DNA of 64,000 bases from an uncultured Candidatus Saccharibacteria bacterium (GCA_964574655.1 CAZNOH010000001.1:201852-265851); one strand, 5' to 3'. Shown: positions 17,456 through 63,866, counted from the stretch's first letter. Program-made: numbers and translations. Notes: generated from the sequence alone by a model not told the origin.

Positions 17456-17884
17456 ATGGCATTGTTAGAATTAATAAAAAACATAGTTGCGGAATTACCA
17501 GCAGAATTAAAAGAAAAAAACGGAAAATATGAATTTGAATTGAAAATTGCTGAGCGAAAAGTTTTTTTATCAAACAAGAAATTAATGTATATCGGAAAAT
17601 TTAGAATTGAGGAGGAAAAGAAAGAGCTAATCTTTTCTGAAATGTTAAAAGAAACTGGATTCGGATTATCTGGGGGTGGAATTGACGAGACTCCTGGATT
17701 TAGTTTTAAGACGGAAACTTATAAAACTGGAATTGGTCCAAGAAATGGAAAAATAGAAGAGCAGTCAGAATTATTTAAGAAGAAATATGATTATAAATTT
17801 GATTTTCAAGCAATAAGAAGTCAAATTGAACAAGCAGCTAAAGATGCTGGCTATAATTTTAAATATCAAATAATTGGAGTATAA
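17456..17884 (+). CDS. Hypothetical protein
   Basis: 142-aa ORF with typical codon usage. Confidence 0.4.
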   Translation: MALLELIKNIVAELPAELKEKNGKYEFELKIAERKVFLSNKKLMYIGKFRIEEEKKELIFSEMLKETGFGLSGGGIDETPGFSFKTETYKTGIGPRNGKIEEQSELFKKKYDYKFDFQAIRSQIEQAAKDAGYNFKYQIIGV

Positions 17885-17950
17885 TCCGCCTTTGTCCTGC
17901 CCTCGTTTTACTACGGCAGGCAAGCCTGTGGGACTACGGCGGACAAGAAG
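17885..17950 (+). repeat. GGCGGACAAG element, copy D (nested hairpins), directly after the stop
   Basis: tccgcc..ggcgga outer stem and cctgcc..ggcagg inner stem. Contains the gggact..ggcggacaag motif. Confidence 0.5.
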
Positions 17951-47930: not shown

Positions 47931-48692
47931 ATGCGAAATAAATTAATAGTTGGCAATTGGAAAATGAATTTAACTTTGGAAGAAGCTCGAAGGTTGACTT
48001 TGGATGTTAGGCAAGGATTAACAAATTTAAGTGAAAAAGTGGAAGTTGCAGTTTGTCCTTCCTTTGTTCACTTGGCTAATGTTCATTATCAATTGCCTTC
48101 TAGTATAAAATTAGGGGCTCAGGATGTGTTTTGGAAAGGAAATGGAGCTTATACTGGCGAGATTTCTTGTGATCAACTTTTGGATTTAGGCTGTTCTTAT
48201 GTAATTGTTGGTCATTCTGAAAGAAGAAAAAATCTGAAAGAAACAGATGTTATAATTAACGATAAAGTCTTAGAATGTTTGAGAAAAGGTTTGAAGCCAA
48301 TAATTTGTGTTGGAGAAACAAAAGACGAAAAAGAAAAAGGAATGACAGAGGAAAAAGTGACACAGCAAGTTGAAGTAGCTTTAGAAGGTGTGAAAAGTAA
48401 GGATGTCGTGAATGTAACAATAGCCTATGAACCAATCTGGGCAATAGGATCAGGAAATTCTGCTGAACCATCCGATGCTCAAGCTGTAATTTTTAGAATA
48501 AGAGATATTTTGAGAAATAATTATTCAGAAAAAGAATCAGAAATGATAAGGATTTTGTATGGGGGAAGTGTAGATCCGCAAAATGTTGCGTCTTTTGTTT
48601 TGGAAAAAGATATTGATGGCGTGTTGGTTGGTGGAGCGAGTATTAAAGCTAATGAATTTGTGGGAATTGTAAAACAGGTTTTAAAAATCTAA
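47931..48692 (+). CDS. tpiA: Triosephosphate isomerase
   Basis: VGNWKMN and IVGHSERR, with the AYEPIWAIGSG motif. Confidence 0.9.
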   Translation: MRNKLIVGNWKMNLTLEEARRLTLDVRQGLTNLSEKVEVAVCPSFVHLANVHYQLPSSIKLGAQDVFWKGNGAYTGEISCDQLLDLGCSYVIVGHSERRKNLKETDVIINDKVLECLRKGLKPIICVGETKDEKEKGMTEEKVTQQVEVALEGVKSKDVVNVTIAYEPIWAIGSGNSAEPSDAQAVIFRIRDILRNNYSEKESEMIRILYGGSVDPQNVASFVLEKDIDGVLVGGASIKANEFVGIVKQVLKI

Positions 48693-48838
48693 TGTCCAAG
48701 AAACAAGAAACAAACAAATCTCAAATTAAAATAACCAATTACCAAACTCGTCGTCGAAGGGTTTGATTATTGGTTATTGAATATTGGAATTTGTTTGTAT
48801 TTTGTATCTTGGTTATTAAATCTTATTTATAAATCATT

Positions 48839-49678
48839 ATGATAGTTTCATCACAAATCTTGTTAAAAAAGGCACAGCAAGGTCATTATGCAATTGGTGC
48901 TTTTAATACTTCTGATTTAGAAATTACAAAAGGAATTGTGGTAGCAGCTGAAGAGTTGAATGCGCCAATAATTTTGCAGACTTCTGAAGGCGAAATAAAG
49001 CATGCAGGATCTGAAGTATTTTTTGATTCAATGAAAATTTTTGCTGAGAAATCAAAAGCACAAATTAATTTAAATTTAGATCATGGAAAAAGTTTTGAAA
49101 TGTGCAAATGGGCAGTAGATAGCGGTTATAATTCTGTAATGATTGATGGATCTAGATTATTTTTAGATGAAAATATAAAACTAACAAAACAAGTCGTTGA
49201 TTACGCGCATTCTAAAAGCGTAGTTGTTGAAGGCGAGATTGGTCTTGTTCCTACTCCTAGCAAAGGCGAAGATGTTAGAATTTTAAAAGCTGATTCAGTT
49301 GAATGCAAAAAATTTATAGAAGAAACTGGTGTTGATTTTTTAGCAGTTGGCATTGGTAATGTTCATGGTGAAAATAAAGGTCAGCCAGTTTTGGATTTTG
49401 AAAGATTAAAAGAAATTAAAGAAGTCGTTGATGTGCCTTTAGTGTTACATGGCGGATCAGGTATTTCTGATGATGATATAAAAAAAGCTGTGTCTTTAGG
49501 AATTTGTAAGATTAATGTTAATACGGAATTGCGTCAGGCTTTTGCTAAGGCTTTGCGGGAAACTTTGGAAGATAAAGATGTAATCAAGCCTTATGATATT
49601 ATGGATCCGGTTGAGGATCGTATTAAAGAAGTTGTAATGAAAAAGATTGAAATTTTTGGAAGTAAAAATAAGGCGTAG
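48839..49678 (+). CDS. fba: Class II fructose/tagatose-bisphosphate aldolase
   Basis: GAFN, LDHG and VLHGGSG motifs. Confidence 0.85.
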   Translation: MIVSSQILLKKAQQGHYAIGAFNTSDLEITKGIVVAAEELNAPIILQTSEGEIKHAGSEVFFDSMKIFAEKSKAQINLNLDHGKSFEMCKWAVDSGYNSVMIDGSRLFLDENIKLTKQVVDYAHSKSVVVEGEIGLVPTPSKGEDVRILKADSVECKKFIEETGVDFLAVGIGNVHGENKGQPVLDFERLKEIKEVVDVPLVLHGGSGISDDDIKKAVSLGICKINVNTELRQAFAKALRETLEDKDVIKPYDIMDPVEDRIKEVVMKKIEIFGSKNKA

Positions 49679-50196: not shown

Positions 50197-50288
50197 TCTA
50201 CCTGGCTTTAGCCAAGGGGTTGGAGAGCCTTAGCTCTCATTTCTTGTGAACTAAAGTTCATGAACCCCTTGGCTAAAGCCAGGTAGAA
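50197..50288 (+). repeat. 92-nt three-hairpin palindromic element, copy 1 (ncRNA or MITE-like candidate)
   Basis: A perfect 26-bp outer inverted repeat (ttctacctggctttagccaaggggtt / aaccccttggctaaagccaggtagaa) encloses two inner hairpins, gagagc-ctta-gctctc and tgaact-aa-agttca. Confidence 0.6.
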
Positions 50289-50303: not shown

Positions 50304-51350
50304 ATGACCAAAACAAATTTTTTAGAATTGATAAATTTTTTACAAAAAAACCATAAAGTCTATGGGCCGGTTTTGGATAGGTCTGGCAGATTATTAGTAA
50401 AAGAAATTAAGGATCCAGAAAAAATAATTTTGAATGGCAGATTAACACATTATTCTTTTAAAAATTTATTTTTGCCATCTCATGAAACTTTATTTGATTA
50501 TGATCATCAAAAATTGAAAGAGCCAAATTTAAGCTATAAAAAACAAGCAATTGTTGGAATGACAATATCCGATTTGGAGGCTTTAGAATTATATGATCAA
50601 GTATTCGTAAAAGATCCATATTATCAGGAAAGACGAAGACAGACTTTAGTTATTGGATATAGTTTAGCGGGTAAAAAAAGTTTTTCTGAGGAATTAATTT
50701 ATGAACAGCAGTTTGAAGAAGATATTTTAGAACATGTGAAGTTTGATGTGTTTTGCGAATTGCGCGAATCTGGAACGAATGACACTAATAATTCTAGTGA
50801 TTTTTGTAAGGTTTTTGCTGGATCGGAGAATGGAATTAAGATTTTGGATGGATTTGGGTATAAGGATTATGAAAATATAAAATATGTTGGGCCAATTAGA
50901 GAACCCGCCTTTGCTTCCGAAGAGGCTGTGGTGGGCAAGGGAGGGTTGGATAAGACAATGATGGCGGTTTATAATAAAATGAGAAAAGGCTATGCCAAAA
51001 AAGTTTGGGAAGATATTGGAAAAAGGTGTATAGAGTGCGGACAATGTACTCTGGTTTGTCCAACTTGTTATTGTTTTAGAATTGATGATGAGCCAAGCTT
51101 GGATAGAGGAAAAGGCAAAAGAGTAAGATGCTGGGATGCTTGTATGTATCATGAATTTTCGGAAATTTCTGGAAAGACAAGATTATTAAAAAGTACTGAA
51201 CAGAGGATGTGGTTTTGGTTTTATCATAAATTTGTTAGAATTCCAGAAAAATATAAAATACCAGGATGTGTTAAATGTGGAAGATGCTCTCGTGTTTGTC
51301 CGGTTGATATTGATTTTATGAAGGTGCTACAAGACATTTTGAAGAGTTGA
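50304..51350 (+). CDS. Group-3 [NiFe] hydrogenase (sulfhydrogenase-type) beta subunit, a 2x[4Fe-4S] protein (AsrA-like)
   Basis: CIECGQCTLVCPTCYC and CVKCGRCSRVCP cluster motifs. Gene context with the gamma and NiFe subunit genes. Confidence 0.6.
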   Translation: MTKTNFLELINFLQKNHKVYGPVLDRSGRLLVKEIKDPEKIILNGRLTHYSFKNLFLPSHETLFDYDHQKLKEPNLSYKKQAIVGMTISDLEALELYDQVFVKDPYYQERRRQTLVIGYSLAGKKSFSEELIYEQQFEEDILEHVKFDVFCELRESGTNDTNNSSDFCKVFAGSENGIKILDGFGYKDYENIKYVGPIREPAFASEEAVVGKGGLDKTMMAVYNKMRKGYAKKVWEDIGKRCIECGQCTLVCPTCYCFRIDDEPSLDRGKGKRVRCWDACMYHEFSEISGKTRLLKSTEQRMWFWFYHKFVRIPEKYKIPGCVKCGRCSRVCPVDIDFMKVLQDILKS

Positions 51351-51467
51351 AAATCAGCTGAATTGATTTTAGAGTTTTGCTAAATAATTTAGTGTTAAAT
51401 TGTTCAATTGCTAGATTGTTAACGTAAAATCGTTGTAGCAATTTAACAATGTAGCAATTTAACAATT

Positions 51468-52310
51468 TTGATGTTTAATCCATATCAAACAAAATTGGTT
51501 GTAATAAAAAGAGTAATTAAAGAATCTTCTGATGTAAAAAGATTTGTTTTGGAATTTGAAAATAAGTTAGATAAAGAAAATTTTGATTTTATACCAGGAC
51601 AGTTTATTAAGGTTTCAATTCCAGGCTTATGCGATGCGCCGTTTACTTTTGGTTCTAGTCCAAAAAATAGAGATAATTTTGAAATTGCAGTTAGGGGAGT
51701 TGGAAATTTGACCAATTTTCTGAATAGAATGCAAATAGGACAAAAAATAGGAATAAGAGGACCGTATGGAAATGGTTTTCCAATGGATTTAATTAAGAAA
51801 AGAAATACTTTGATTGTGTCTGGCGGTTGTGGTTTTGTGCCTTTTAAATCGATGATAGAAGATTATCTAATTGACAAAAAAAGTTATAAATCTAAGTTCC
51901 AAATTTTTTACGGAGCGAGGTCTTTTGACGAGCTGTTGTTTAAAAGAGATTTTGAAAAATGGGAAAGTAGCGGTATAGATTTAAAGATAACTGTTGATAA
52001 GAATGATGAGAAGTGTGATATTTCTAAATATGGTTGCAATGTTGGTTTGGTAACTGAATTAATTAAAAATGAGGATTTGGTAGAAAAACCAGTTGTCTTG
52101 GTTTGTGGTCCGTCAATAATGGTAAAATTTGTAGTAATGGAATTAGATAAACTGTCTATCCCCCATTCTGATATTTTTGTTTCGTTAGAGGGAAGAATGG
52201 AATGCGGAATAGGAGTGTGTGAGCATTGCGCAATTGGTCCTTATTATGTTTGCAAAGATGGACCAGTGTTTAGTTGGGATAAGATTGAATGGATTCCAAA
52301 CATAGTTTGA
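51468..52310 (+). CDS. Hydrogenase gamma subunit: FAD/NAD(P)-binding oxidoreductase with a C-terminal [2Fe-2S] (AsrB/PyrK-like)
   Basis: FNR-like fold (RxYS-type motif, GGCG) and a C-terminal CGIGVCEHCAIG. Confidence 0.6.
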   Translation: MMFNPYQTKLVVIKRVIKESSDVKRFVLEFENKLDKENFDFIPGQFIKVSIPGLCDAPFTFGSSPKNRDNFEIAVRGVGNLTNFLNRMQIGQKIGIRGPYGNGFPMDLIKKRNTLIVSGGCGFVPFKSMIEDYLIDKKSYKSKFQIFYGARSFDELLFKRDFEKWESSGIDLKITVDKNDEKCDISKYGCNVGLVTELIKNEDLVEKPVVLVCGPSIMVKFVVMELDKLSIPHSDIFVSLEGRMECGIGVCEHCAIGPYYVCKDGPVFSWDKIEWIPNIV

Positions 52311-52411
52311 AGTAAAAATTAAAAAGTAAAAAGGTAAAGGTTGCAAGTAAAAAGTAAAAAGTTACGCGACGATTTTTTTACTTTTTAATTTTAACTTTTG
52401 ACTTTTTTAAC

Positions 52412-53695
52412 ATGTGTTTAACAATGCCTGGAAAAGTAAGTAAAATTAATGGAAACTTTGCGATAGTTGAGGGAAATTTTGGATTGAGAAGTGTCAATAT
52501 TATGGCATTAGGAAAAATTAAGATTGGTGATTGGCTTTTGGCGACAACTGGTTTAGCTGTTAAAAAAATTAATGAAAACGAGGCGCAGGAATTAATTGAT
52601 TTATTGAAAAGTCATGATGCGGTTGACAGCAACAAGATAGATAAAAAATTATTGAATGTTTTAGAAAATGCAAGAAAAAGGAATTTGAATAGAGACGAGA
52701 TTGTTTTTTTATTAAGTTTAAAAAAAAAGAAAGATATTGAGGCTTTGTTTTCAGAAGCTGATGTGATTAGAAAAAGTTATTTAAAAGATTTTATATGCAT
52801 TCATGGCATAATTGAATTTTCAAATTATTGTGAGAATAATTGTTCATATTGCGGATTGAGATTTGAAAATAAGAAATTAAAAAGATACAGAATGTCTTTT
52901 AAGGAGATTGTTGAAGTAATTGATGAAGCAGTAAATAAAATAGGTTATAAAATGTTGGTATTGCAGAGCGGAGTTGATAAAGGATGGAGCGATGCGAAAT
53001 TAATTGAATTAATAAAATTGATTAAAAAAAAGCATCGAGTTTTTATTCTGATAAGTATTGGTGAACGGAGTTTGGAATGTTATAGAAAGATGAAAAAAGC
53101 AGGAGCTGATGGAGTTTTGTTTAGATTTGAGACAGCAAATAAAGATCTTTATCACAAATTGCATTTATCTAAGACATTGAAAGGCAATTTTAAGAAGCGA
53201 TTAAAATTAATTGGTGAATTAAAGAAAATGGGTTATTATATTTCTTCAGGGTCAATGATTGGATTACCTGGTCAAACAATTGGTGATTTGGCAAACGATG
53301 TTTTAATGATGAAAAAGTTGAAAGTAGGAATGGTCTCAATGGGTCCCTTTGTCCCATGTAAAAATACTCCATTTGAGAAAGAAAAAAAAGCTGAAACGAT
53401 GTTGAGTTTGAAAATGATAGCTATTTGTCGTATTTTAATGAAAGAAGCAAGGATACCAATTACTTCTGCTTTAGAGACAATTGGAGGCGAAGAGATTAGG
53501 AAAAAAGGATTGAGCTGTGGTGCGAATTCATTGATGTTCAATCTAACACCGCAAAAATATAGAAAAGATTATAAAATTTACAATAACAAATTTTATGGGA
53601 GAAACAAGAAATTAGAGAGAGCAGCTTTATTTCAGAATGAAGATAGCTGGAGGATGATCGAGCAAGAGTTTAGAAAAAAAATAGATAAATTTTGA
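52412..53695 (+). CDS. Fusion protein: N-terminal HypC/HupF-type [NiFe]-hydrogenase chaperone domain (about 75 aa) plus a radical-SAM HydE [FeFe]-hydrogenase maturase
   Basis: Starts MCLTMPGKV..GDWLL..G.A..KINENEA (the HypC signature with Cys2). The rest aligns along its length with HydE: IIEFSNYCENNCSYCGLR, KRYRM, LQSG, ETAN, GSMIGLPGQT, MGPFVP, CGANS. Confidence 0.7.
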   Translation: MCLTMPGKVSKINGNFAIVEGNFGLRSVNIMALGKIKIGDWLLATTGLAVKKINENEAQELIDLLKSHDAVDSNKIDKKLLNVLENARKRNLNRDEIVFLLSLKKKKDIEALFSEADVIRKSYLKDFICIHGIIEFSNYCENNCSYCGLRFENKKLKRYRMSFKEIVEVIDEAVNKIGYKMLVLQSGVDKGWSDAKLIELIKLIKKKHRVFILISIGERSLECYRKMKKAGADGVLFRFETANKDLYHKLHLSKTLKGNFKKRLKLIGELKKMGYYISSGSMIGLPGQTIGDLANDVLMMKKLKVGMVSMGPFVPCKNTPFEKEKKAETMLSLKMIAICRILMKEARIPITSALETIGGEEIRKKGLSCGANSLMFNLTPQKYRKDYKIYNNKFYGRNKKLERAALFQNEDSWRMIEQEFRKKIDKF

Positions 53696-53699
53696 GTAT

Positions 53700-55070
53700 A
53701 TGCTAATAATAGATCAGAGAAAAATTAAAGAGTTTTTAGATAATAAGAAAAACGTAGATGAAGATGAGGCAAAGCAGATTGTTAAAAAAGCAAAAAAAAA
53801 GAAAGGTCTTAATTTAGCAGAAGTGGCGATTTTATTGAATGTTAATGATGAGAAGTTAATTGCTGAAATGTTTAAGGCGGCGATTGAAATAAAAAAAGCG
53901 ATATATGGGAATAGATTGGTTCTATTTGCGCCACTATATATTTCGAACTATTGCGTTAATGATTGTGAATATTGTAGCTTTCATATTCGAAACAAAGCGT
54001 CAAGAAAAAAATTAACCTTGGATGAGGTTAGAAAACAAGTTGAAATTTTGGAAGATATGGGCCACAAGAGACTGCTTTTAGAATTTGGCGAAGATCCCAT
54101 TAATAATCCAATTGATTATGTGGTTGATGTAATAAAAACAATATATAATGTAAAAAGGGGTAATGGATCGATTAGAAGAGTGAATATTAATATAGCAGCA
54201 ACAACCGTCGAAAATTATAAAAAAATAAAAGAAGCTGGAATTGGAACTTACCAGCTTTTTCAAGAAACTTATCATCAACCAACCTATAAAAAATTGCATT
54301 GCGGTCCTAAAGCTGACTATGAACGGCAAATTACGGCTTTAGATCGAGCTTTTCAAGCGGGAATTGATGATTTAGGAATCGGTGTTTTATTCGGACTTTA
54401 TGATTATAAATTTGAAGTTTTAAGTTTGCTAATGCATGCCCAATATCTGGAAAAGAAGAATGGCGTAGGGCCTCATACAATTTCCGTACCGAGATTTCAG
54501 TCTGCAATGACTGTTGATTATAAGTCTAGATATAAAGTTTCCGATAAAGCTTTTTTAAAACTAGTAGCGATCTTGAGAATGGCAGTCCCATATACGGGAA
54601 TAATAATGTCAACCAGGGAAACTCCAGAGATTCGTAGAAAAGCGTTTGAAATTGGCGTATCACAAACTAGTGCAGGATCAAAAACTGCGCCAGGAGGATA
54701 TCTGAAAAAATCAAAAACTAGTGATTTGCAACAATTTTCTTTGCATGATAAAAGGTCACTGGATGAAGTTGTTTGTGATATTTGCGGGCTTGGATATTTA
54801 CCAAGTTTTTGCACAGCATGTTATCGTGTCGGGCGGACAGGCGATCAATTTATGGAATATGCAAAATCAGGAAAAATTCAGAGATTTTGTCAACCTAACG
54901 CGATAATGACTTTAAAGGAATATTTAGTTGATTATGCATCAAAAGATACAAAGAAAGCAGGTGAAGAATTGATTAATAGTGAATTAAAAAAGATGGATGT
55001 GAAAAAAAGAGCTTTGTTTAAGAGAAAGCTAAAATTGATCGAACAAGGAAAGAGGGATATATATATTTAG
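53700..55070 (+). CDS. Radical-SAM HydG (tyrosine lyase producing CO/CN ligands), [FeFe]-hydrogenase maturase type
   Basis: N-terminal PLYISNYCVNDCEYC (CX3CX2C) and a C-terminal CTACYRVGRTGDQFMEYAKSGKIQRFC, which is an exact CX2CX22C auxiliary-cluster motif. That motif separates HydG from ThiH. Confidence 0.7.
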   Translation: MLIIDQRKIKEFLDNKKNVDEDEAKQIVKKAKKKKGLNLAEVAILLNVNDEKLIAEMFKAAIEIKKAIYGNRLVLFAPLYISNYCVNDCEYCSFHIRNKASRKKLTLDEVRKQVEILEDMGHKRLLLEFGEDPINNPIDYVVDVIKTIYNVKRGNGSIRRVNINIAATTVENYKKIKEAGIGTYQLFQETYHQPTYKKLHCGPKADYERQITALDRAFQAGIDDLGIGVLFGLYDYKFEVLSLLMHAQYLEKKNGVGPHTISVPRFQSAMTVDYKSRYKVSDKAFLKLVAILRMAVPYTGIIMSTRETPEIRRKAFEIGVSQTSAGSKTAPGGYLKKSKTSDLQQFSLHDKRSLDEVVCDICGLGYLPSFCTACYRVGRTGDQFMEYAKSGKIQRFCQPNAIMTLKEYLVDYASKDTKKAGEELINSELKKMDVKKRALFKRKLKLIEQGKRDIYI

Positions 55071-55191
55071 AATTCATTATTTGTAAAATGAAGACGAAAT
55101 TTAATGTCCAATCTAAGTAAAAAATAGCAATGTTTTTTATGATTTTGTAAATAAGCGTTCTTTTTAAATTTCAAGGTAAAGGAGGAGAAAG

Positions 55192-55866
55192 ATGAGCAGC
55201 AATGATGGTTTGATTGAAGCAGCAAGATTTTCGTGGAATTGTTGTCCAGAAAATAGAGTTCTTTGCGATGGATTATACGGCTTTGTTGGAGGAAATGGCG
55301 GGCATGATGTTGCATGGATTCGAGGTCAACTAAAAAGTCTTTATTCATATTTTTATTATCTGTTGATTGCTAGGCAAAATGGAATTTCTGATCCTTTTGA
55401 TTTGCGAGTTGTTCAGGCACATTGGATTGGCAATGATTTGTTGAGGGTTGTGAAAGCTAGCGATGTTAAAGAATTATTATCAGCTACTAAAGAATTGAGC
55501 GCATTGCCGAGAGAAAAAGAAACGATGATGAGGTGGTTATTGAGCAAGCTTGTAAAATTAGGATCTTATCCTCATCATAGTTTTTATGCAACTGTTTATG
55601 AAAAGTTGAATCCCGCACTTGTCCGTCAAGGAAAAAGATGTTTTATAGACTGCGGCAAAGTGTTGGAATTGGAAGACGATCATTTTCTTATCGAAGTCAA
55701 TGGAGTTACGAGAAAATGCGGTTATGGTTTTCTGAAAGGAAAGATTGAAGTTGGAGATTTGGTTTTTATCCATTTGAATGAGGGTTGCAGGGTTGCAACT
55801 TTAGATGAAAAAACAAAATTAGATGATTGGTTTGTTGCTACAGAATGTACATTAAGGTTGCTTTAA
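55192..55866 (+). CDS. Hypothetical hydrogenase-cluster protein with 9 Cys; the C-terminal part has a weak HypC-barrel-like pattern
   Basis: Strong SD aaaggaggagaaag. Position between hydG and the NiFe small-subunit gene. No P-loop, so it is not HydF. Confidence 0.4.
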   Translation: MSSNDGLIEAARFSWNCCPENRVLCDGLYGFVGGNGGHDVAWIRGQLKSLYSYFYYLLIARQNGISDPFDLRVVQAHWIGNDLLRVVKASDVKELLSATKELSALPREKETMMRWLLSKLVKLGSYPHHSFYATVYEKLNPALVRQGKRCFIDCGKVLELEDDHFLIEVNGVTRKCGYGFLKGKIEVGDLVFIHLNEGCRVATLDEKTKLDDWFVATECTLRLL

Positions 55867-55923
55867 TTTAGATCCTTGATCTTTAATCATTGTGGTTAGA
55901 GATTTTTAACCTAAATTGAAATA

Positions 55924-56688
55924 ATGGAACAACAAAAATTAAAAGTAGCAATGGTTTCTTTGACTTCCTGCGAAGGATGTTATTTTAGCTTGCTTGATTT
56001 AGGAAATGAATTTTTAGAAATTGCTGACAAAATTGATTTAGTTAAATTTCGATTATTTGAAGAAAAAGAGCATTCTGAAAATGAAAAATATGATCTTGCG
56101 TTTGTGGAAGGCAGTCCGATTTCTAAAGAGAATTTTGATAAGTTGATTAATTTGAGATTGAGAACTAAAAAATTAATTATTTTGGGTGGATGTGCTCATA
56201 CTGGTGGAACATATGCAATGCGAAATCATACTGACAAAAAGAAAGCTTGTAAATATGTTTATCCTAAAACTAATAAAAAAGTTTTTAATCCAAAAATTTT
56301 AGAACTTTCTAAAGTTGTAAAAATTGACGGAATTATTCCAACTTGTCCGGTTAATCCTAGAGAATTTGTTAGATTTATGTCTTTTATCTTGAATAGTTTA
56401 ACGTTTAAAATTGTTGAAAGGCCAGTCTGTCATGAATGCCAATTAGCAGAGACTCCTTGTTTATTAAAAATGGGATTGCCTTGTTTTGGGCCAATGGCTC
56501 TTGGAGGTTGTGATGCGCCTTGTCCTCAAGCAGGAATGCCTTGTCAATTATGTCGTGGACCAATGAAAGAGATTGTTTGGGAAAATTTTGAAAAGAAAAT
56601 GAAAGAAATAATGGGTGCTGAAGTTTGGGAAAAAGATTATCATGAAATACTCGAGATTTTTAATGTGAAGGATAAAATTAATTGTTAA
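55924..56688 (+). CDS. [NiFe] hydrogenase small subunit, group 3 type (delta subunit; no Tat signal)
   Basis: N-terminal KVAMVSLTSCEGCYFSLLD, and more FeS Cys in the C-terminal half (CPVNPREF.., CHECQ, CFGPM..GGCDAPCP). Confidence 0.75.
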   Translation: MEQQKLKVAMVSLTSCEGCYFSLLDLGNEFLEIADKIDLVKFRLFEEKEHSENEKYDLAFVEGSPISKENFDKLINLRLRTKKLIILGGCAHTGGTYAMRNHTDKKKACKYVYPKTNKKVFNPKILELSKVVKIDGIIPTCPVNPREFVRFMSFILNSLTFKIVERPVCHECQLAETPCLLKMGLPCFGPMALGGCDAPCPQAGMPCQLCRGPMKEIVWENFEKKMKEIMGAEVWEKDYHEILEIFNVKDKINC

Positions 56689-56722
56689 ATTGTTTTATTG
56701 TTAAATCGTTAAATATTATTTT

Positions 56723-57052
56723 ATGGAAATTAAACAAGAGATTAAAAAACCAGAAGCTGTTAAAATAATTGTTGAAGATAACGGTAAAATTGTTGGCAGA
56801 GCTTATTTATATTTGATTAATAATGATTTGCATAAAGAGCCTTATGGATTGTTGGAGGATGTTTTTGTTGAAGAAAATCAAAGAGGAAAAGGAACTGGTA
56901 CGAAATTAGTTCAGGCAGTAATTGATGAAGCTAAGAAAAGAGATTGTTATAAATTAATTGCAACTAGTAGGAAATCAAGAGAGCAAGTACACGAATGGTA
57001 TTTGAAATTTGGTTTTGAAGATTATGGTTGTGAATTTAGGATGGAGTTATAA
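56723..57052 (+). CDS. GNAT-family N-acetyltransferase (small, 109 aa)
   Basis: Q/RxxGxG/A motif in NQRGKGTGTKLV. Confidence 0.5.
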   Translation: MEIKQEIKKPEAVKIIVEDNGKIVGRAYLYLINNDLHKEPYGLLEDVFVEENQRGKGTGTKLVQAVIDEAKKRDCYKLIATSRKSREQVHEWYLKFGFEDYGCEFRMEL

Positions 57053-57082
57053 AGTTGTAAAGTTTTTAAAGTTATAAAGTAA

Positions 57083-58387
57083 ATGAAAAAAATAATAAAA
57101 ATAAATCATCTAGCTAAAATGGAAGGGCATGCTTCGTTTGAAGGCAAGATTTTGGCAGGAAGAATTTTAGAAGCGCATATTATTACAGAAGAAGGCGCAA
57201 GATTAATTGAGGGAACATTGGTAGGCAGACATTATTCTGAAGCGTCGACGATTACTTCCAGAATTTGTGGGATCTGTCCAATTGTTCATCATCTAACAGC
57301 TGTGAAAGCTTTGGAAGAATGTTTTGATGTTAAAGTCAGCTCTGAAACTATAATGCTTAGAAAAGTTTTGGAATTAGCGCAAATAATTCATAGCCATACT
57401 TTGCATCTTTTCTTTTTGTCTTTACCTGATTTTTTGAATTATGATGATACAAAAAAGATGGCAGGTAGATATCCTAATGAAGCGCAGATGGCAATTGATA
57501 TTCGGAAATGGGCGACTGATTTATGTTTAGTAATTGGTGGTAGAATTACACATCCTTTGACAAATATGGTAGGCGGATTTAGGAAATGGCCCGAAGAAGA
57601 AAATTTAGAAAAATTTTTAGATGGTTCTGGTGATATTTTGGAGATGGCATTAAAAATCGCCCAATTATTTAGAGATTTAGATTATCCAAAGTTTGATAAT
57701 CTAGGAAACTTTATTGCGTTATCAAATGATACTGAATATGCAATCTATGAAGGCGAAGTTAAAATTTGGGAGACAAAGAAAAATTTAGCTAAAAAAATAT
57801 TTGGCAAGCAAATGAAAGGAATAAGTGCAACGAAATTTATTAAGAAAATTAAAGAAATAGAATTGCAAAATGAATTGGTAAAAAGAGTGAAGTATAATGG
57901 AAAGTCTTTTTTTTGTGGAGCATTAGCAAGGATTAATATCAATAAATATCTGTTGAATGAAGAGTCTTCAAAATTTTTAGAAACAACAAATATTGATTTT
58001 CCAACAGATAATACTTTTTATAATGTTTTAGCTCAAGCTGTTGAGGTTATTCATTGTGTTGAAGAAATCAGAAATTTATTGAGAGAATTAAAGAAGATAA
58101 ATTGGTTGAAGGCTAAAAATACGAGTTTTAAAATTAAGGCTGGCAAAGGAGTGGCTGCAATTGAGGCGCCGAGAGGGACTTTGTATCATTATTATGAAAC
58201 TGATAAAGATGGATATATTAAAAACTGTAATATAATTACGCCAACAGCGCAGTTTTTGGCAAAATTAGAAGATGATTTGAGTGTGTTTTTATCTGATGTT
58301 AAAAATTTGCCGGATTTGGAAAGAAAAAATAAAATAAAAATGATGATAAGGGCGTTTGATCCGTGTATTAGTTGCGCTACGCACTAA
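57083..58387 (+). CDS. [NiFe] hydrogenase large subunit (alpha), ending at the Ni-site His with no C-terminal extension
   Basis: N-terminal RICGICPIVHH (RxCGxC) and C-terminal DPCISCATH followed directly by a stop codon. Confidence 0.85.
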   Translation: MKKIIKINHLAKMEGHASFEGKILAGRILEAHIITEEGARLIEGTLVGRHYSEASTITSRICGICPIVHHLTAVKALEECFDVKVSSETIMLRKVLELAQIIHSHTLHLFFLSLPDFLNYDDTKKMAGRYPNEAQMAIDIRKWATDLCLVIGGRITHPLTNMVGGFRKWPEEENLEKFLDGSGDILEMALKIAQLFRDLDYPKFDNLGNFIALSNDTEYAIYEGEVKIWETKKNLAKKIFGKQMKGISATKFIKKIKEIELQNELVKRVKYNGKSFFCGALARININKYLLNEESSKFLETTNIDFPTDNTFYNVLAQAVEVIHCVEEIRNLLRELKKINWLKAKNTSFKIKAGKGVAAIEAPRGTLYHYYETDKDGYIKNCNIITPTAQFLAKLEDDLSVFLSDVKNLPDLERKNKIKMMIRAFDPCISCATH

Positions 58388-58419
58388 TTTTACAAATACA
58401 AAAAATAATTTAAAATATT

Positions 58420-58851
58420 ATGAAAAAACAAAATAGAAAAAAAATAAACAAGGATGTTACAGTCAGAAGTTTATCAGAAAAAATTGATAAGCGTTTTGAG
58501 CAAGTTGATAAGCGTTTTGATAAGATGATGAAAGTAATGGATAATAGATTTGGTGAGTTGTATAGTTTTTTACAAAAACACATGGTAACAAAAGAGGAAT
58601 TTAATGAAAGATTGTTGAAGTTGGAAAACAGAATTGAGAATATTGAACAAAATTATTCAACGAAGGATGATTTATTGAAAGTAAAAGATGAACTTTTGAC
58701 ATTAATGGATAAAATTATTAATGATTATAAAAAAGATAAACAAGAACATGCTTTTTTCAGTTATCATCTGGAAAGAATTGCAAAATTAGAATATCGGATT
58801 GATAAAATAGAGGGTAAGAAAGTTAAAGACTTAAAATTTACAAATGCATGA
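58420..58851 (+). CDS. Hypothetical coiled-coil protein
   Basis: 143 aa with heptad-like charged repeats. Confidence 0.35.
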   Translation: MKKQNRKKINKDVTVRSLSEKIDKRFEQVDKRFDKMMKVMDNRFGELYSFLQKHMVTKEEFNERLLKLENRIENIEQNYSTKDDLLKVKDELLTLMDKIINDYKKDKQEHAFFSYHLERIAKLEYRIDKIEGKKVKDLKFTNA

Positions 58852-59101
58852 CTTTCATGCGGCGGACAATTTATTAAAGATGGCACTTGAACATGCAAAG
58901 AAAAATAAACTGAGAAAAGTTGACAAAATTAAAATTGAATTAGGAAAATTTGTTGAGCATGGGCAAGAAATATTAGCAGATAATTTGAAATTTAATATTA
59001 AAATGTTGGCTAAAGGTACGATTGCTAAAAATGCAGAAATTGTTATTATTGAGAAACAAGGTGAAAGAGGCTATGAATTAGTAGAGATTGAAGGAGAATA
59101 G
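58844..59101 (+). CDS. Minimal HypA-like nickel metallochaperone lacking the zinc-finger domain
   Basis: MHDFHAADNLLKMALEHAKK parallels the HypA MHE-Ni site plus helix. The C-terminal YELVEIEGE parallels the HypA end. There are no Cys at all (HypA normally has CxxC..CxxC). Confidence 0.45.
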   Translation: MHDFHAADNLLKMALEHAKKNKLRKVDKIKIELGKFVEHGQEILADNLKFNIKMLAKGTIAKNAEIVIIEKQGERGYELVEIEGE

Positions 59102-59147: not shown

Positions 59148-60311
59148 ATGAATAAAAAAACAATCAAAGATATTGATGTCAAAAATAAAACAGTTTTAGT
59201 CAGAGCTGATTTTAATGTACCAATTAAAGATGGTAAGATTCTTGACGATTTTAAAATTAAAAAAAGCCTTGATACTATAAATTATTTGATTAAAAATAAT
59301 GCGAAAATTGTTTTGATGTCGCATTTGGGAAAGCCAAAAGGAAAGGTTGTTGAAGATTTAAGATTAGATTCGATTGCGAAAAGATTAAGTGAAATGTTAG
59401 AAAAAAAAGTTGAAAAATTAAATGACTGTATAGGGCAGGAAGTTAATGATAAGGTTAAGCAGGCGAAATTAGGTGATGTGATATTGTTAGAGAATGTTCG
59501 TTTTCATCCTGAAGAAGAGAAAAATGATCCAGAATTTGCTAAGAAATTGGCGAGTTTGGGAGAAATTTTTTGTGAAGATGGGTTTGGATCAGTACATCGC
59601 GCTCATGCATCTGTTTCAGGAATTGCTAAATTTTTGTCAGCTGTTGCAGGATTATTGTTGGAAAAAGAAGTTGATGTTTTGACAGAAGTTTTAGAGAAGC
59701 CAGATCATCCATATTTAGTGATTTTAGGTGGAGCAAAGATTTCAACAAAATTAAATTTGATTAATAAGCTAGCAAAACAGGCGGACAAGCTTTTGGTTGC
59801 AGGTGCATTGTCTAATACTATTTTTCTGGCGAATGGCGTGAATGTTGGCGGATCAATCGTGGAAAAAGAAATGCTAGAGCAAATTAAAAATACAGTTTTA
59901 AAAAATACTAACATTGATATTCCGATTGATGTAATTGTCGGAAAAGATAATGGCGATGGGACGAGAACTGTTGATATTGGGAATGGAATAAGCAGCGATG
60001 AATTTATTTATGATATTGGACCGAAAACAATTGATTTGTTTAAGAGAAAAATTGATAAAGCGAGATTAGTTGTTTGGAATGGGCCAATGGGAAAATTTGA
60101 GAATAAAAAATTTGCAAAAGGTACTGAGAATATTGCAAAAGAATTGGTAAGAGTTAAAAAAGCAGTTGTTGGCGGAGGAGAGACTTCAATGGCAATTCGA
60201 AAATTAGGCTTAGAAGATAAAATTTATTTTTTATCTACTGGTGGGGGAGCAATGCTGGAGTTTTTAGAGGGAAAACTAATGCCGGGAATAGAGTGCTTAT
60301 TAGATAAATAA
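59148..60311 (+). CDS. pgk: Phosphoglycerate kinase
   Basis: RADFNVP, and GGGA in the C-terminal domain. Confidence 0.95.
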   Translation: MNKKTIKDIDVKNKTVLVRADFNVPIKDGKILDDFKIKKSLDTINYLIKNNAKIVLMSHLGKPKGKVVEDLRLDSIAKRLSEMLEKKVEKLNDCIGQEVNDKVKQAKLGDVILLENVRFHPEEEKNDPEFAKKLASLGEIFCEDGFGSVHRAHASVSGIAKFLSAVAGLLLEKEVDVLTEVLEKPDHPYLVILGGAKISTKLNLINKLAKQADKLLVAGALSNTIFLANGVNVGGSIVEKEMLEQIKNTVLKNTNIDIPIDVIVGKDNGDGTRTVDIGNGISSDEFIYDIGPKTIDLFKRKIDKARLVVWNGPMGKFENKKFAKGTENIAKELVRVKKAVVGGGETSMAIRKLGLEDKIYFLSTGGGAMLEFLEGKLMPGIECLLDK

Positions 60312-60325
60312 AATTAATAATATTT

Positions 60326-61567
60326 ATGAAAATAATTAAGATTAGAGCCCGAGAAATTCTTGACTCAAGAGGTGAGCCAACTGTGGAAGTGCGTGTTGAT
60401 TTAGATGGCGGTAAATTTGGCATTGCTAGAGTTCCTTCTGGTGCTTCAACAGGAAAATATGAAGTATTAGAATTGAGAGATAAAGATAAAAAAAGATATG
60501 GCGGGAAAGGAGTGTTGAGAGCTTGCAAAAATGTTAATGATATTATTTCGCAAAGGCTGGTTGGATTATATGCAGATAAGCAAGAAAAAATTGATCGGAC
60601 TTTGATTGCATTAGATGGGACAAAAAATAAATCAAAATTAGGAGCAAATGCGATTCTTGGCGTGTCATTAGCATGTTGTGTAGCAGCAGCTAATTCTAAA
60701 GAAATCGAACTATATCAGTATATCGGCGAAATTTTTGGCAATGATAATTTTGTAATGCCGCAAGCATATTTTAATATTATCAATGGTGGAAAACATGCTG
60801 ACTCTGGATTAGATGTCCAGGAATTTATGATTGTGCCAAAAGCAGTTAATTTTTATGAAAAAGTGAGAGTTGGTTCAGAAATTTTTCATGCTTTGAAAGA
60901 TATTTTGCAAAGAAGAGAATATTCAATTAGTGTTGGTGACGAGGGTGGTTTTGCACCGAAATTAGATAGCAATGAACATGCAATTGAAACTATTTTGAAG
61001 GCAATCGAAGAGGCAGGATATAAGCCAGGAGCTGATGTAAATATTGCTTTAGATGTTGCTGCTTCTTCTTTCTATAGTAAGGAGAAGGGATATTGTTTGA
61101 ATTCTGGCAAGTGCATTGAATCAGATCATTTAATAGCGATGTTTTCGGATTGGATTAGCAAATATCCAATAAAAAGCATTGAAGATCCTCTCGCTCAAGA
61201 TGATTGGGAAGGTTTTAAAAAAATTACTGAAAAGTTAGGAGATAAAATTCAAATAATTGGTGATGATTTGTTTGTAACAAACATTGAAAGAGTAAAAAAA
61301 GGTATTGTTGAAAATTGCGCAAATTCTGTTTTGATAAAACCAAATCAAATTGGTACTTTGACGGAAACTTTTGAATGTATAAAATTAGCAAAATCAAAAG
61401 GCTATGCAACAATGGTTTCGCATCGTTCTGGCGAGACAACTGATACTTTTATTGCTGATCTTTGTGTTGGAACTAATGCCGCACAGATCAAGTCTGGTTC
61501 CTTGTCTCGTGGTGAAAGAGTTTGCAAATATAATCGGTTGATGGAGATTGAGGAGAAGCTTAAATAA
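60326..61567 (+). CDS. eno: Enolase
   Basis: ILDSRGEPTVEV, SHRSGETTD and IKPNQIGT motifs. Confidence 0.95.
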   Translation: MKIIKIRAREILDSRGEPTVEVRVDLDGGKFGIARVPSGASTGKYEVLELRDKDKKRYGGKGVLRACKNVNDIISQRLVGLYADKQEKIDRTLIALDGTKNKSKLGANAILGVSLACCVAAANSKEIELYQYIGEIFGNDNFVMPQAYFNIINGGKHADSGLDVQEFMIVPKAVNFYEKVRVGSEIFHALKDILQRREYSISVGDEGGFAPKLDSNEHAIETILKAIEEAGYKPGADVNIALDVAASSFYSKEKGYCLNSGKCIESDHLIAMFSDWISKYPIKSIEDPLAQDDWEGFKKITEKLGDKIQIIGDDLFVTNIERVKKGIVENCANSVLIKPNQIGTLTETFECIKLAKSKGYATMVSHRSGETTDTFIADLCVGTNAAQIKSGSLSRGERVCKYNRLMEIEEKLK

Positions 61568-61691
61568 TTTTTAATTTATAATTTCAAATTTTAAATAAAT
61601 TTTAAAATATTAATTTCAAAAATGTTTTTTGACGTTTGTTTTAAAATTATATTATTTAAAATTCAATTAAAATTTAAAATTTAAAATTTTT

Positions 61692-63281: not shown

Positions 63282-63299
63282 AGATATTAATTTTTAATT

Positions 63300-63866
63300 A
63301 TGAAAATAAAAATTGAAGTCAGTGCTCGACATATTCATTTGAGCCAAGAACATTTAGATCAACTTTTTGGAAAAGATCATAAATTAACAAAAAAGTTAGG
63401 TTTGTCGCAAGAAGGTGAATTTGCCTGTGAAGAAACTTTGAAAGTTGTGGGACCAAAAGGGAAAATTGAAAATGTCAGGATTATCGGACCTGTTCGATCA
63501 AAAACTCAAATAGAAGTTTCGAAAACAGATGGTTTTATGCTAGGCAATATTCCTCCTTTGTGTGTTTCTGGTGATGTTGTTGGTTCTGCACCTGTAAAAT
63601 TAGTTGGTCCTAACGGCTCCGTTGATTTATTGGAAGGCATGATCATTGTGATGAGACATGTTCATATATCTATTGGTAAAGCCAAAGAATTAAATTTAGA
63701 AAATGGGCAAAGAGTTTCTGTTTCTTGTCTAGGAGATCGAGGATTATTATTTGATAATGTTGTTGTTAGAGTTAAAGAAAATTTTCAATTCTTTTTTCAG
63801 ATTGATACTGATGAAGCAAATGCGGCTGGTGTTGAAAATGGAGATGTCGGGGAGTTAGTTGTTTAA
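63300..63866 (+). CDS. PduL-type phosphate acyl(acetyl/propanoyl)transferase
   Basis: Two internal repeats, each with an xRHxHxS motif (SARHIHLS and MRHVHISIG). The length of about 190 aa is typical of PduL. Confidence 0.65.
   Translation: MKIKIEVSARHIHLSQEHLDQLFGKDHKLTKKLGLSQEGEFACEETLKVVGPKGKIENVRIIGPVRSKTQIEVSKTDGFMLGNIPPLCVSGDVVGSAPVKLVGPNGSVDLLEGMIIVMRHVHISIGKAKELNLENGQRVSVSCLGDRGLLFDNVVVRVKENFQFFFQIDTDEANAAGVENGDVGELVV

What the first reader, a model, noticed from the sequence alone, without database searches (positions are those of the whole stretch)
50304..59101. Hybrid hydrogenase maturation system: [FeFe]-type maturases HydE and HydG embedded in a group-3 [NiFe] hydrogenase operon
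Gene order is beta, gamma, HypC-HydE, HydG, Cys-rich orphan, small subunit, GNAT, large subunit, X, Zn-less HypA.

The structural genes carry classical NiFe signatures: RxCGxC and DPCxxCxxH in the large subunit, and a group-3 small subunit without a Tat signal. Yet the only ligand-synthesis enzymes in the cluster are HydE and a bona fide HydG. Its CX2CX22C motif identifies it as the enzyme that builds the Fe(CO)x(CN) synthon from tyrosine.

No [FeFe] hydrogenase (HydA) or HydF GTPase gene is in the 64 kb. No hypD/E/F (the carbamoyl-phosphate route to CN) or hypB gene is present here either.

The source of CO for [NiFe] hydrogenases in anaerobes is unresolved. A HydG-fed route into the HypC-bound Fe(CN)2CO intermediate would be a new pathway.

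Established family knowledge: HydE/HydG/HydF mature the H-cluster. HypC-HypD carry Fe(CN)2CO. HypEF make CN from carbamoyl phosphate.

Inference: cross-talk in this organism.
Basis: partly seen in the sequence, partly recalled or inferred. Interest (0 to 1): 0.9.

Follow-up and report, generated by a model that had tools for sequence, protein, structure and literature searches.

The report
HydE/HydG maturases serving a NiFe hydrogenase
The nickel-iron hydrogenase operon of a tiny uncultured bacterium contains the two radical-SAM enzymes that normally build the iron-only hydrogenase cofactor, one fused to the NiFe chaperone HypC, and the same wiring recurs in at least 80 species, which points to an undescribed tyrosine-based route to the enzyme's CO and cyanide ligands.

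Summary
Window 50304-59101 is one + strand cluster: beta, gamma, HypC-HydE fusion, HydG, DUF6390 protein, small subunit, GNAT, group-3b large subunit, coiled-coil ORF, and a Cys-free 85-aa HypA.

HydG (612.7 bits, cut-off 312) and HydE (280.7 bits, cut-off 254.6) pass NCBIfam's curated thresholds. I found no HydA, HydF or HypB/D/E/F in the 64 kb.

The arrangement is not an accident of gene placement:
- HypC-HydE fusions with an invariant N-terminal Met-Cys occur in at least 80 species genomes (CPR, Planctomycetota/anammox, Desulfobacterota-type, WOR-3, a DPANN archaeon).
- Across 1.22 Mb around them, HydG is present in 54 loci and NiFe subunits in 50.
- HypD/E/F, HydA and HydF are present in none.
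- One genome fuses HypC, HydE and HydG into a single protein.

My best reading is a NiFe-dedicated module that delivers a tyrosine-derived Fe-CO/CN unit to HypC.

Open points:
- I could not test whether hypDEF is absent genome-wide.
- A near-identical relative has stand-alone HypC plus DUF6390 and no HydE/HydG.
- HydG looks like an ordinary FeFe-type enzyme by sequence.

The papers I could search do not describe this route. One 2026 preprint merely notes an "unusual HydE-HypC fusion".

The parts
50304..51350 (+). Hydrogenase beta subunit (4Fe-4S dicluster; ShyB/HydB/AsrA-like)
   Evidence: PF17179 Fer4_22 at 101 bits. It matches NF040829 ShyB (103 bits) and TIGR02910 AsrA (110 bits), both below their equivalog cut-offs.
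51468..52310 (+). Hydrogenase gamma subunit (FAD/NAD(P)-binding, 2Fe-2S)
   Evidence: PF00970, PF00175 and PF10418. NF006220 at 210 bits and ShyC at 189 bits.
52412..53695 (+). HypC-HydE fusion: N-terminal HypC chaperone domain (residues 1 to about 70, starting Met-Cys) plus a radical-SAM HydE domain (about 82-395)
   Evidence: PF01455 56.5 bits and TIGR00074 51.6 bits for the HypC domain. TIGR03956 280.7 bits (cut-off 254.6) for the HydE domain. CENNCSYC at residue 140. 250.9 bits to T. maritima HydE and 40.6 bits to T. kodakarensis HypC in the PDB. M1, C2, L3, T4 and P6 are invariant in 17 fusions.
53700..55070 (+). HydG, radical-SAM tyrosine lyase with a C-terminal auxiliary-cluster domain
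   Evidence: TIGR03955 612.7 bits, cut-off 312. 595.6 bits end to end against T. italicus HydG 4wcx. CVNDCEYC at 85 and CX2CX22C at 371.
55192..55866 (+). DUF6390 protein: helical N-domain without a solved structural relative, plus a HypC-like OB C-domain
55924..56688 (+). NiFe hydrogenase small (delta) subunit, cytoplasmic
   Evidence: PF01058 67 bits. NF040836 and NF040831 at 127 and 122 bits. The N-terminus MEQQKLKVAMV has no RRxF motif.
56723..57052 (+). Small GNAT acetyltransferase between the small and large subunit genes; role unknown
   Evidence: PF00583 66 bits. It holds the same position in L088, L089, L090 and L093.
57083..58387 (+). Group-3b [NiFe] hydrogenase large (alpha) subunit with no C-terminal extension
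   Evidence: PF00374 117 bits. ShyA at 232 bits. The best solved relative is P. furiosus sulfhydrogenase I alpha 9e15, aligned over residues 5-434. RICGIC at 60, and the protein ends DPCISCATH.
58420..58851 (+). Unassigned 143-aa Lys/Glu-rich ORF ('X')
   Evidence: It has no family above threshold. It is 44% identical to the ORF at the same position in L089.
58844..59101 (+). HypA reduced to its N-terminal nickel-binding domain (85 aa, no Zn site)
   Evidence: PF01155 36.9 bits over profile positions 1-69 of 112. It starts MHD and has no cysteine. Versions of 84-95 aa occur in 15 of the 80 related loci.

Best explanation
The HypC-HydE fusion and HydG form a maturation module dedicated to the [NiFe] hydrogenase encoded around them.

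Proposed sequence of events:
1. HydG cleaves tyrosine and assembles CO and CN on an iron atom. This is the established chemistry of the family, whose known product is an Fe(II)(Cys)(CO)2(CN) synthon.
2. The HydE domain, whose known substrate is exactly that synthon, frees the Fe-carbonyl-cyanide unit from its cysteine.
3. The covalently attached HypC domain captures the unit on its N-terminal cysteine and carries it to the apo large subunit.
4. The Zn-less HypA N-domain then helps insert nickel.
5. No protease is needed, because the large subunit already ends at the mature C-terminus.

In this scheme HydF is dispensable because no dinuclear cluster or dithiomethylamine bridge is made. The module most likely takes over the job of HypD/HypE/HypF, at least for CO. 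DUF6390, a second HypC-like protein, probably acts as an additional or alternative scaffold.

What is shown: gene identities, the fusion, and its conserved linkage.

What is inferred: all chemistry, the hand-over between domains, the change to a 2 CN : 1 CO ligand set, and the replacement of HypDEF.
For: Identity:
- HydG and HydE score above NCBIfam's curated cut-offs and carry all cluster motifs.
- HydG aligns end to end with a structurally characterised HydG.

Gene fusion:
- The best 120 database relatives all combine PF01455 with PF04055.
- Met-Cys-Leu-Thr-x-Pro is invariant at the N-terminus, the position HypC needs for its free Cys2.
- L064 encodes one 881-aa HypC-HydE-HydG polypeptide.

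Conserved neighbourhood, 80 species-representative loci covering 1.22 Mb:
- HydG is present in 54 loci.
- A NiFe large or small subunit is present in 50.
- HypD/E/F hits number 0.
- HydA and HydF motif hits number 0.

The linkage survives rearrangement and a change of hydrogenase class:
- In CPR loci the module sits inside the 3b operon.
- In Desulfobacterota-type loci it is divergent from a 3b operon.
- In Planctomycetota the order is CE-HydG-HypA-HypB, then a small subunit with NiFe_hyd_SSU_C, a 484-aa large subunit and a hybrid histidine kinase.

Several loci read like a hyp operon lacking hypD/E/F:
- L027: HypA-HypB-CE-HydG-HycI.
- L038: CE-HydG-HycI-HypA-HypB.

Literature:
[quoted passage not shown] It never mentions HypD or HypF (doi 10.64898/2026.04.11.717937).

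Stoichiometry (inference): two tyrosines give 2 CO + 2 CN, enough for Fe(CN)2CO.
Against: - A relative whose operon is 80-91% identical protein by protein (large subunit 90%) has stand-alone HypC plus DUF6390 and no HydE/HydG between gamma and delta (L089/L090). No HydE above 61% or HydG above 72% identity from that organism turned up in the protein searches. So either the module is dispensable there or other genes do the work.
- About a quarter of the fusion loci have no hydG within 10 kb, and 30 of 80 show no hydrogenase gene within 10 kb. Many of those sit on short contigs.
- HydG is not diverged from FeFe-type HydG: it is 59.5% identical to T. italicus HydG, which falls inside the spread of the NiFe-linked sequences.
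- The known HydG product carries 2 CO + 1 CN. The NiFe site needs 1 CO + 2 CN.
- The fused HypC domain lacks the conserved His51 of canonical HypC.
- Genome-wide absence of hypD/E/F, hydA and hydF was not tested.
- There is no expression or biochemical data. All sequences come from metagenome assemblies.
Confidence: 0.62

Rival explanations
1. Division of labour with a canonical Hyp system encoded elsewhere. HydG/HydE-HypC supply only the CO ligand or an Fe-CO intermediate, while HypE/HypF make the cyanides from carbamoyl phosphate and HypD remains the scaffold.
For: - The anaerobic source of CO is the acknowledged gap in the Hyp pathway (PMC12134894).
- Large Desulfobacterota and Planctomycetota genomes commonly hold several hydrogenases that share one hypDEF set, as E. 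coli does with HybG and HybF (established knowledge).
- Relatives without HydE/HydG keep intact hydrogenase genes.
- DUF6390 lies next to a genuine HypF in L147.
Against: - No hypD/E/F lies within 10 kb of any of 80 fusion loci, including loci that gather hypA, hypB and the protease beside the module.
- HydG makes cyanide as well as CO, so a CO-only role would waste CN.
- The fused HypC domain lacks His51, which canonical HypC proteins conserve.
- CPR genomes are very small. The preprint on the 1.52-Mb symbiont mentions neither HypD nor HypF.
Confidence: 0.25
2. HydE/HydG is an optional or recently inserted cassette. The DUF6390 plus HypC pair, or unknown factors, is what this lineage's hydrogenase really depends on, and the window merely carries both.
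For: - Three near-identical operons differ only in the cassette between gamma and delta: the window has CE + HydG + DUF6390, L093 has CE + HydG, and L089 has HypC + DUF6390.
- DUF6390 lies beside HypC and NiFe genes in many metagenome loci. A large subunit is present in 38 of 80 and HypC in 25 of 80.
- In L159 DUF6390 occupies the usual hypD position.
Against: - L093 does without DUF6390.
- Among the 80 fusion loci DUF6390 occurs nowhere, only in the window itself.
- DUF6390 has no recognisable catalytic domain that could make CO or CN.
- The fusion and its linkage to NiFe genes span phyla, which argues for long-term selection.
Confidence: 0.08
3. These are ordinary FeFe maturases parked here, serving an [FeFe] hydrogenase encoded outside the window.
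For: - HydG is indistinguishable by sequence from FeFe-type HydG.
- NCBI names these proteins FeFe maturases.
- The rest of the genome was not seen.
Against: - HydE is translationally fused to the NiFe-specific chaperone HypC in at least 80 species.
- No HydF or HydA motif occurs in 1.22 Mb of flanks, while NiFe genes occur in 50 of 80 loci.
- The linkage holds across different gene orders and hydrogenase classes.
Confidence: 0.04

Closest known systems
Canonical [NiFe] maturation machinery HypABCDEF (E. coli, T. kodakarensis)
   Same: It shares a HypC-type chaperone with an N-terminal Cys2, a HypA-type nickel factor, and the same target: a large subunit with RxCGxC and DPCxxCxxH motifs.
   Different: - I found no HypD scaffold, no HypE/HypF carbamoyl-phosphate route to cyanide, and no HypB in the window or near any related locus.
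- HypC is fused to a radical-SAM enzyme and lacks His51.
- HypA lacks its Zn domain.
- No protease is needed.
[FeFe] hydrogenase H-cluster maturation system HydE/HydF/HydG
   Same: It shares HydG with both clusters' motifs and a HydE orthologue. The two genes are adjacent, as expected for a substrate-product pair.
   Different: - There is no HydF scaffold and no HydA target nearby.
- HydE carries a HypC domain.
- The presumed product is a mononuclear Fe(CN)2CO unit for a NiFe site, not a [2Fe] subcluster.
HypX-dependent aerobic CO synthesis for [NiFe] hydrogenases
   Same: It is also an add-on enzyme that supplies a diatomic ligand to the Hyp scaffold by a dedicated route.
   Different: HypX uses formyl-tetrahydrofolate, works under oxic conditions, is unrelated in sequence, and acts together with HypCDEF.
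Pyrococcus furiosus sulfhydrogenase I/II (group 3b, alpha-beta-gamma-delta)
   Same: It has the same four-subunit architecture, and it is the best solved match for the large subunit (9e15).
   Different: - The subunits here score far below the equivalog cut-offs.
- Maturation genes are interleaved in this operon.
- The operon is embedded in a glycolysis gene cluster.
'Unusual HydE-HypC fusion' noted in Ca. Centrionella anaeramoebae (bioRxiv 10.64898/2026.04.11.717937)
   Same: The same fusion lies in a NiFe operon with HypA, HypB and a protease.
   Different: The preprint mentions it in one sentence. It proposes no pathway, does not mention HydG, and makes no comparative survey.

Membership tests
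HydG (TIGR03955) | Whole-protein score above the curated cut-off | tested here: met
   612.7 bits against a cut-off of 312.15. ThiH, the next family, scores 295.6, below its own cut-off of 380.
HydG (TIGR03955) | N-terminal CX3CX2C radical-SAM motif and C-terminal CX2CX22C auxiliary-cluster motif | tested here: met
   CVNDCEYC at residue 85. CTAC plus 22 residues plus C at residue 371.
HydG (TIGR03955) | Tyrosine cleavage to CO and CN on a dangler iron | not testable with these tools
   Only sequence similarity is available: 595.6 bits to 4wcx over residues 4-455.
HydE (TIGR03956) | Score above the curated cut-off, with a CX3CX2C motif | tested here: met
   280.7 bits against a cut-off of 254.6, a narrow margin. 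PylB scores 166.3, below its cut-off. CENNCSYC at residue 140. 250.9 bits to T. maritima HydE.
HypC/HupF (PF01455, TIGR00074) | Score above the cut-off and an N-terminal Met-Cys | tested here: met
   56.5 bits (cut-off 28.5) and 51.6 bits (cut-off 48). MCLT is the first start after the upstream stop. M1 and C2 are invariant in 17 fusions.
HypC/HupF (PF01455, TIGR00074) | Conserved histidine equivalent to E. coli His51 | tested here: not met
   The aligned position is Thr in the window, and none of the aligned fusions has His there. One Desulfobacterota-type fusion has a His one position earlier.
Group 3b [NiFe] hydrogenase | Large-subunit L1 and L2 cysteine motifs, a cytoplasmic small subunit, and diaphorase beta and gamma subunits | tested here: met
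   RICGIC and DPCISCATH. The best solved relative is sulfhydrogenase I alpha. Beta, gamma and delta are assigned to the Shy/Hyd families, though below the equivalog cut-offs.
Canonical Hyp maturation system (HypABCDEF) | HypD scaffold together with the HypE/HypF cyanide synthesis pair | tested here: not met
   There are no phmmer hits with E. coli HypD/E/F and no motif hits, in the window or in 80 related loci. The rest of the genome was not seen.
FeFe maturation system (HydEFG with HydA) | HydF GTPase scaffold and an H-cluster hydrogenase | tested here: not met
   No HydF or HydA signature motifs occur in the window or in the 80 loci. This was a motif-level test of local sequence only.
HypA (PF01155, TIGR00100) | N-terminal Met-His nickel site plus a CxxC...CxxC zinc domain | tested here: not met
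   The protein starts MHD but has no cysteine. Only profile positions 1-69 of 112 are matched, and 35.7 bits falls below the TIGR00100 cut-off of 88.1.
DUF6390 (PF19927) | Score above the gathering threshold | tested here: met
   48.7 bits against a cut-off of 25. A profile search finds 517 representatives at E <= 1e-3.

The most novel reading that the evidence does not exclude
These organisms make the whole Fe(CN)2CO group of a [NiFe] hydrogenase from tyrosine, using HydG and a HypC-tethered HydE, with no HypD, HypE, HypF or carbamoyl phosphate. That would be a second, independent biosynthetic route to the NiFe cofactor, and it would name the CO source in these anaerobes.

DUF6390 would be a further, interchangeable HypC-type scaffold that can occupy the same operon slot.
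Probability: 0.35. Interest if true: 0.92.

Novelty: new variant of a known kind. Interest (0 to 1): 0.8.

Why it matters
[quoted passage not shown] A HydG-fed route would answer that question for a broad set of organisms and break the rule of two separate maturation systems.
- It would offer a shorter gene set for producing NiFe hydrogenases in foreign hosts.
- It would link the evolution of the two hydrogenase classes.
- It matters for annotation. Hundreds of these proteins are labelled '[FeFe] hydrogenase maturase', which can lead metabolic reconstructions of CPR, anammox and DPANN genomes to infer FeFe hydrogenases that may not be there.
- The hypothesis is directly testable with one cloned operon and isotope-labelled tyrosine.

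Tried and rejected
- **Whole genome.** I could not retrieve the roughly 654-kb source contig or any closed genome carrying the fusion. The genome-wide presence of hypDEF, hydA and hydF therefore stays untested.
- **Literature.** None turned up a HydG or radical-SAM route for NiFe maturation, any discussion of hydrogenase maturation in CPR papers, or hyp inventories for anammox bacteria.
- **Structure libraries.** The afdb50 fold library was unavailable.
- **DUF6390 alignment.** The broad alignment A3 was too diverse for a locus scan. The narrower A4 was used instead.
- **Signals.** The promoter and terminator scan was uninformative in this AT-rich DNA: 59 promoter-like sites against 45 expected. 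The one useful feature is a terminator-like hairpin at 50223-50238, just upstream of the beta gene.
- **RNA families.** Rfam found nothing in the window.
- **P0279.** This 682-aa 'HydG' looked like a new fusion but is an internally duplicated assembly artefact.
- **Cluster c11.** I checked this recurrent neighbour as a possible maturation factor. It looks like a membrane-anchored methyltransferase and I set it aside.
- **HydG tree.** The tree has a single FeFe reference and uses neighbour joining with midpoint rooting. It shows only that there is no deep separation.

Full report
**What is in the window.** Positions 50304-59101 hold ten + strand genes separated by at most 121 nt, with one pair overlapping by 8 nt.

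Profile searches assign them as follows:
- a 4Fe-4S beta subunit;
- an FAD/NAD(P) gamma subunit;
- a 427-aa protein whose first 65 residues are a HypC domain (PF01455 56.5 bits; TIGR00074 51.6 bits, cut-off 48) and whose remainder is HydE (TIGR03956 280.7 bits, cut-off 254.6);
- HydG (TIGR03955 612.7 bits, cut-off 312);
- a DUF6390 protein;
- the small subunit;
- a GNAT;
- the large subunit;
- an unassigned 143-aa ORF;
- an 85-aa HypA fragment.

The cluster motifs are all present. CENNCSYC lies in HydE. CVNDCEYC and CX2CX22C lie in HydG. RICGIC lies in the large subunit, whose last nine residues are DPCISCATH, so no C-terminal processing is required.

The closest solved structures are as follows:

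| Protein | Best solved match | Score |
|---|---|---|
| HydG | T. italicus HydG, 4wcx, end to end | 595.6 bits |
| HydE domain | T. maritima HydE | 250.9 bits |
| Large subunit | P. furiosus sulfhydrogenase I alpha, 9e15 | 191.9 bits |

HypA begins MHD and has no cysteine, so its zinc domain is missing. One refinement: the 'Cys-rich orphan' belongs to a named but uncharacterised family.

**The rest of the 64 kb.**
- phmmer with E. coli HypA-F and HycI (fetched) against every ORF of at least 45 aa hit only the HypA fragment.
- Signature motifs of HydA, HydF, HypD and HypE are absent.
- Ten further large ORFs are unrelated: competence protein, glycosyltransferase, peptidase, helicase and others.
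- The operon is flanked by tpi and fba upstream and by pgk, eno and gpmI downstream (Pfam names from the syntenic L089).
- GC content is about 32% with a strong positive skew.
- The nearest relatives are labelled Falkowbacteria, Parcubacteria or Patescibacteria, so the source is a CPR bacterium.

**Is the arrangement an accident?** No.
- The 120 best database relatives of the fusion all carry both PF01455 and PF04055.
- In an alignment of 17 of them, M1, C2, L3, T4 and P6 are invariant. The cysteine that HypC uses to carry iron is thus kept at the free N-terminus.
- A scan of one genome per species found 306 relatives. The best 80 all align from residue 1-2 through the HydE domain, except one cut by a contig end.
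- By record title they include many CPR lineages, Brocadiaceae/Kuenenia and other Planctomycetota, Deltaproteobacteria/Syntrophales/Thermodesulfobacteriota and WOR-3.
- A DPANN archaeon also carries the pair.

Across those 80 loci, 1.22 Mb in total, the counts are these:

| Feature | Loci |
|---|---|
| HydG | 54 |
| NiFe large or small subunit | 50 |
| N-domain-only HypA | 15 |
| Full HypA and HypB | 7 |
| HycI-type protease | 4 |
| HypD, HypE or HypF | 0 |
| HydA or HydF motifs | 0 |

The linkage holds across different gene orders:
- inside the 3b operon in CPR loci;
- divergently beside a 3b operon in a Deltaproteobacteria MAG;
- in Planctomycetota, as CE-HydG-HypA-HypB followed by a small subunit with the NiFe_hyd_SSU_C domain, a 484-aa large subunit and a hybrid histidine kinase. 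That layout resembles a group-2 sensory hydrogenase.

L027 (HypA-HypB-CE-HydG-HycI) and L038 (CE-HydG-HycI-HypA-HypB) look like hyp operons lacking hypD/E/F. L064 encodes a single 881-aa HypC-HydE-HydG protein.

**How ordinary are the enzymes?** HydG is 59.5% identical to the T. italicus FeFe maturase. It is only 50-56% identical to the NiFe-linked HydGs of Desulfobacterota-type and Planctomycetota loci. In a crude neighbour-joining tree the FeFe reference falls within the spread of NiFe-linked sequences.

By sequence, then, HydG is a normal HydG, and nothing suggests altered chemistry. The fusion and the synteny contradict the other half ('merely parked').

The fused HypC domain differs from canonical HypC in lacking His51 (Thr here). 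Stand-alone HypCs that accompany the fusion in some loci keep that histidine.

**The DUF6390 protein.**
- An AlphaFold model is confident, with pLDDT 90.
- C17, H128, H129, C150 and H194 are invariant in 19 relatives.
- C150 and H194 align with HypC Cys2 and His51.
- The family has 517 representatives in 1.84 billion proteins.

In 80 metagenome loci found with a family alignment, a NiFe large subunit is present in 38 and HypC in 25. HydE, HydG and HypD are present in none. In L159 the order is large subunit-HycI-HypA-HypB-HypC-DUF6390. In L147 a genuine HypF follows DUF6390. DUF6390 is therefore a NiFe-associated partner of HypC in its own right, and it is not tied to HydE/HydG.

**A natural cassette swap.** Three operons share the skeleton fba-beta-gamma-[cassette]-delta-GNAT-alpha-x-HypA-pgk-eno. 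Their proteins are 80-92% identical (large subunit about 90%), apart from DUF6390 at 73% and ORF X at 44%. They differ between gamma and delta:

| Locus | Cassette |
|---|---|
| Window | HypC-HydE + HydG + DUF6390 |
| L093 | HypC-HydE + HydG |
| L089 / L090 | 71-aa stand-alone HypC + DUF6390 |

More distant loci also show HypC + DUF6390 (L088, L091, L095).

No HydE above 61% identity or HydG above 72% identity attributable to the L089 organism appeared in the protein searches. So HydE/HydG are not indispensable to every member of this lineage, unless other genes compensate elsewhere.

**Literature.**
- A 2025 review states that six Hyp proteins are required. It calls the anaerobic origin of CO the most pressing question and never mentions HydG or radical SAM (PMC12134894).
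- Jaffe et al. 2020 surveyed the neighbourhoods of CPR hydrogenases and noted only a family with 'homology to hypC' (PMC7304191).
- Valentin-Alvarado et al. 2024 describe CPR 3b hydrogenases without discussing maturation (PMC10811913).
- The one direct mention is a 2026 preprint, which lists 'an unusual HydE-HypC fusion' with HybD, HypA and HypB in a 1.52-Mb symbiont. It offers no interpretation.
- Subscription journals were not searchable.

**Mechanism.**

Shown: identities, the fusion, and the linkage.

Established for the families:
- HydG builds Fe(Cys)(CO)2(CN) from tyrosine.
- HydE acts on that synthon.
- HypC Cys2 carries Fe(CN)2CO to the large subunit.

Inferred:
- In cis, the HypC domain receives the HydE product.
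- One CO is exchanged for the second HydG-derived cyanide.
- HydF is unnecessary because no binuclear cluster is made.
- HypD/E/F are bypassed.

I put 0.62 on the module being a NiFe-dedicated supplier of tyrosine-derived ligands, and about 0.35 on complete independence from HypDEF.

The main rival, at 0.25, is cooperation with a hypDEF set encoded elsewhere, with HydG supplying mainly CO. The cassette swap keeps alive a minor rival in which DUF6390/HypC is the essential part. Parked FeFe maturases are very unlikely.

**Verdict.** It is a new variant built from two known maturation systems. It bears directly on a long-standing open question, and the experiments listed under next steps could test it.

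Noticed in passing
window 55192-55866; L088, L089, L091, L095, L098-L177: DUF6390 is a two-domain protein. Its helical N-domain has no solved structural relative, and its C-domain is HypC-like, keeping the Cys and His that align with HypC Cys2 and His51. It sits beside HypC and NiFe hydrogenase genes in many lineages, sometimes where hypD normally lies (L159) or next to HypF (L147). It looks like an uncharacterised NiFe maturation factor.
   Followed up: partly
window 52412-55866 compared with L093:3645-6305 and L089:9786-10672: Near-identical operons (large subunit about 90% identical) carry three different maturation cassettes in the same slot: CE + HydG + DUF6390, CE + HydG, or stand-alone HypC + DUF6390.
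   Followed up: yes
L064:10001-12646: A single 881-aa ORF fuses HypC, HydE and HydG in a Falkowbacteria MAG.
   Followed up: partly
L007:12717-13229 and eight other loci (cluster c12): A DJ-1/PfpI family gene recurs directly after hydG or the HypC-HydE gene. In one CPR subgroup it follows the fusion even though no hydrogenase lies within 10 kb.
   Followed up: no
window 47931-49678 and 59148-63866; L088, L089, L093 and many CPR loci: The hydrogenase operon is embedded in a glycolysis and fermentation gene cluster: tpi and fba upstream, then pgk, eno, gpmI and a PTAC-type phosphotransacylase downstream. This arrangement is conserved among relatives.
   Followed up: partly
window 56723-57052: A 109-aa GNAT acetyltransferase lies between the small and large subunit genes. 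It is conserved at that position in L088, L089, L090 and L093. Its function is unknown.
   Followed up: no
L050:9998-20764; L049; L054; L068: In Planctomycetota and anammox genomes the HypC-HydE/HydG/HypA/HypB module adjoins a hydrogenase with a group-1/2-type small subunit and a hybrid histidine kinase, a layout resembling sensory hydrogenases. Toxin-antitoxin genes (L050) or a type I restriction-modification system (L068) are inserted within the cluster.
   Followed up: partly
L097:8685-11380: An Aenigmarchaeota (DPANN) contig of 610 kb carries the HypC-HydE plus HydG pair with no hydrogenase gene within 10 kb.
   Followed up: no
L176:8647-10603; L120; L165; L095:6930-8777: Outside the CPR, a recurrent cassette is HypC, an EamA-family transporter, then DUF6390.
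   Followed up: no
L046:9444-9971 and 17448-17948, and similar loci (cluster c11): Paired membrane-anchored ORFs resembling class-I methyltransferases flank the hydrogenase genes in Buchananbacteria-type loci.
   Followed up: no
window 1-64000: There is no Rfam hit in 64 kb. Almost all genes lie on the + strand, and GC skew stays between +0.17 and +0.45 throughout.
   Followed up: no
window 9162-10979: A 605-aa ORF has no Pfam match.
   Followed up: no
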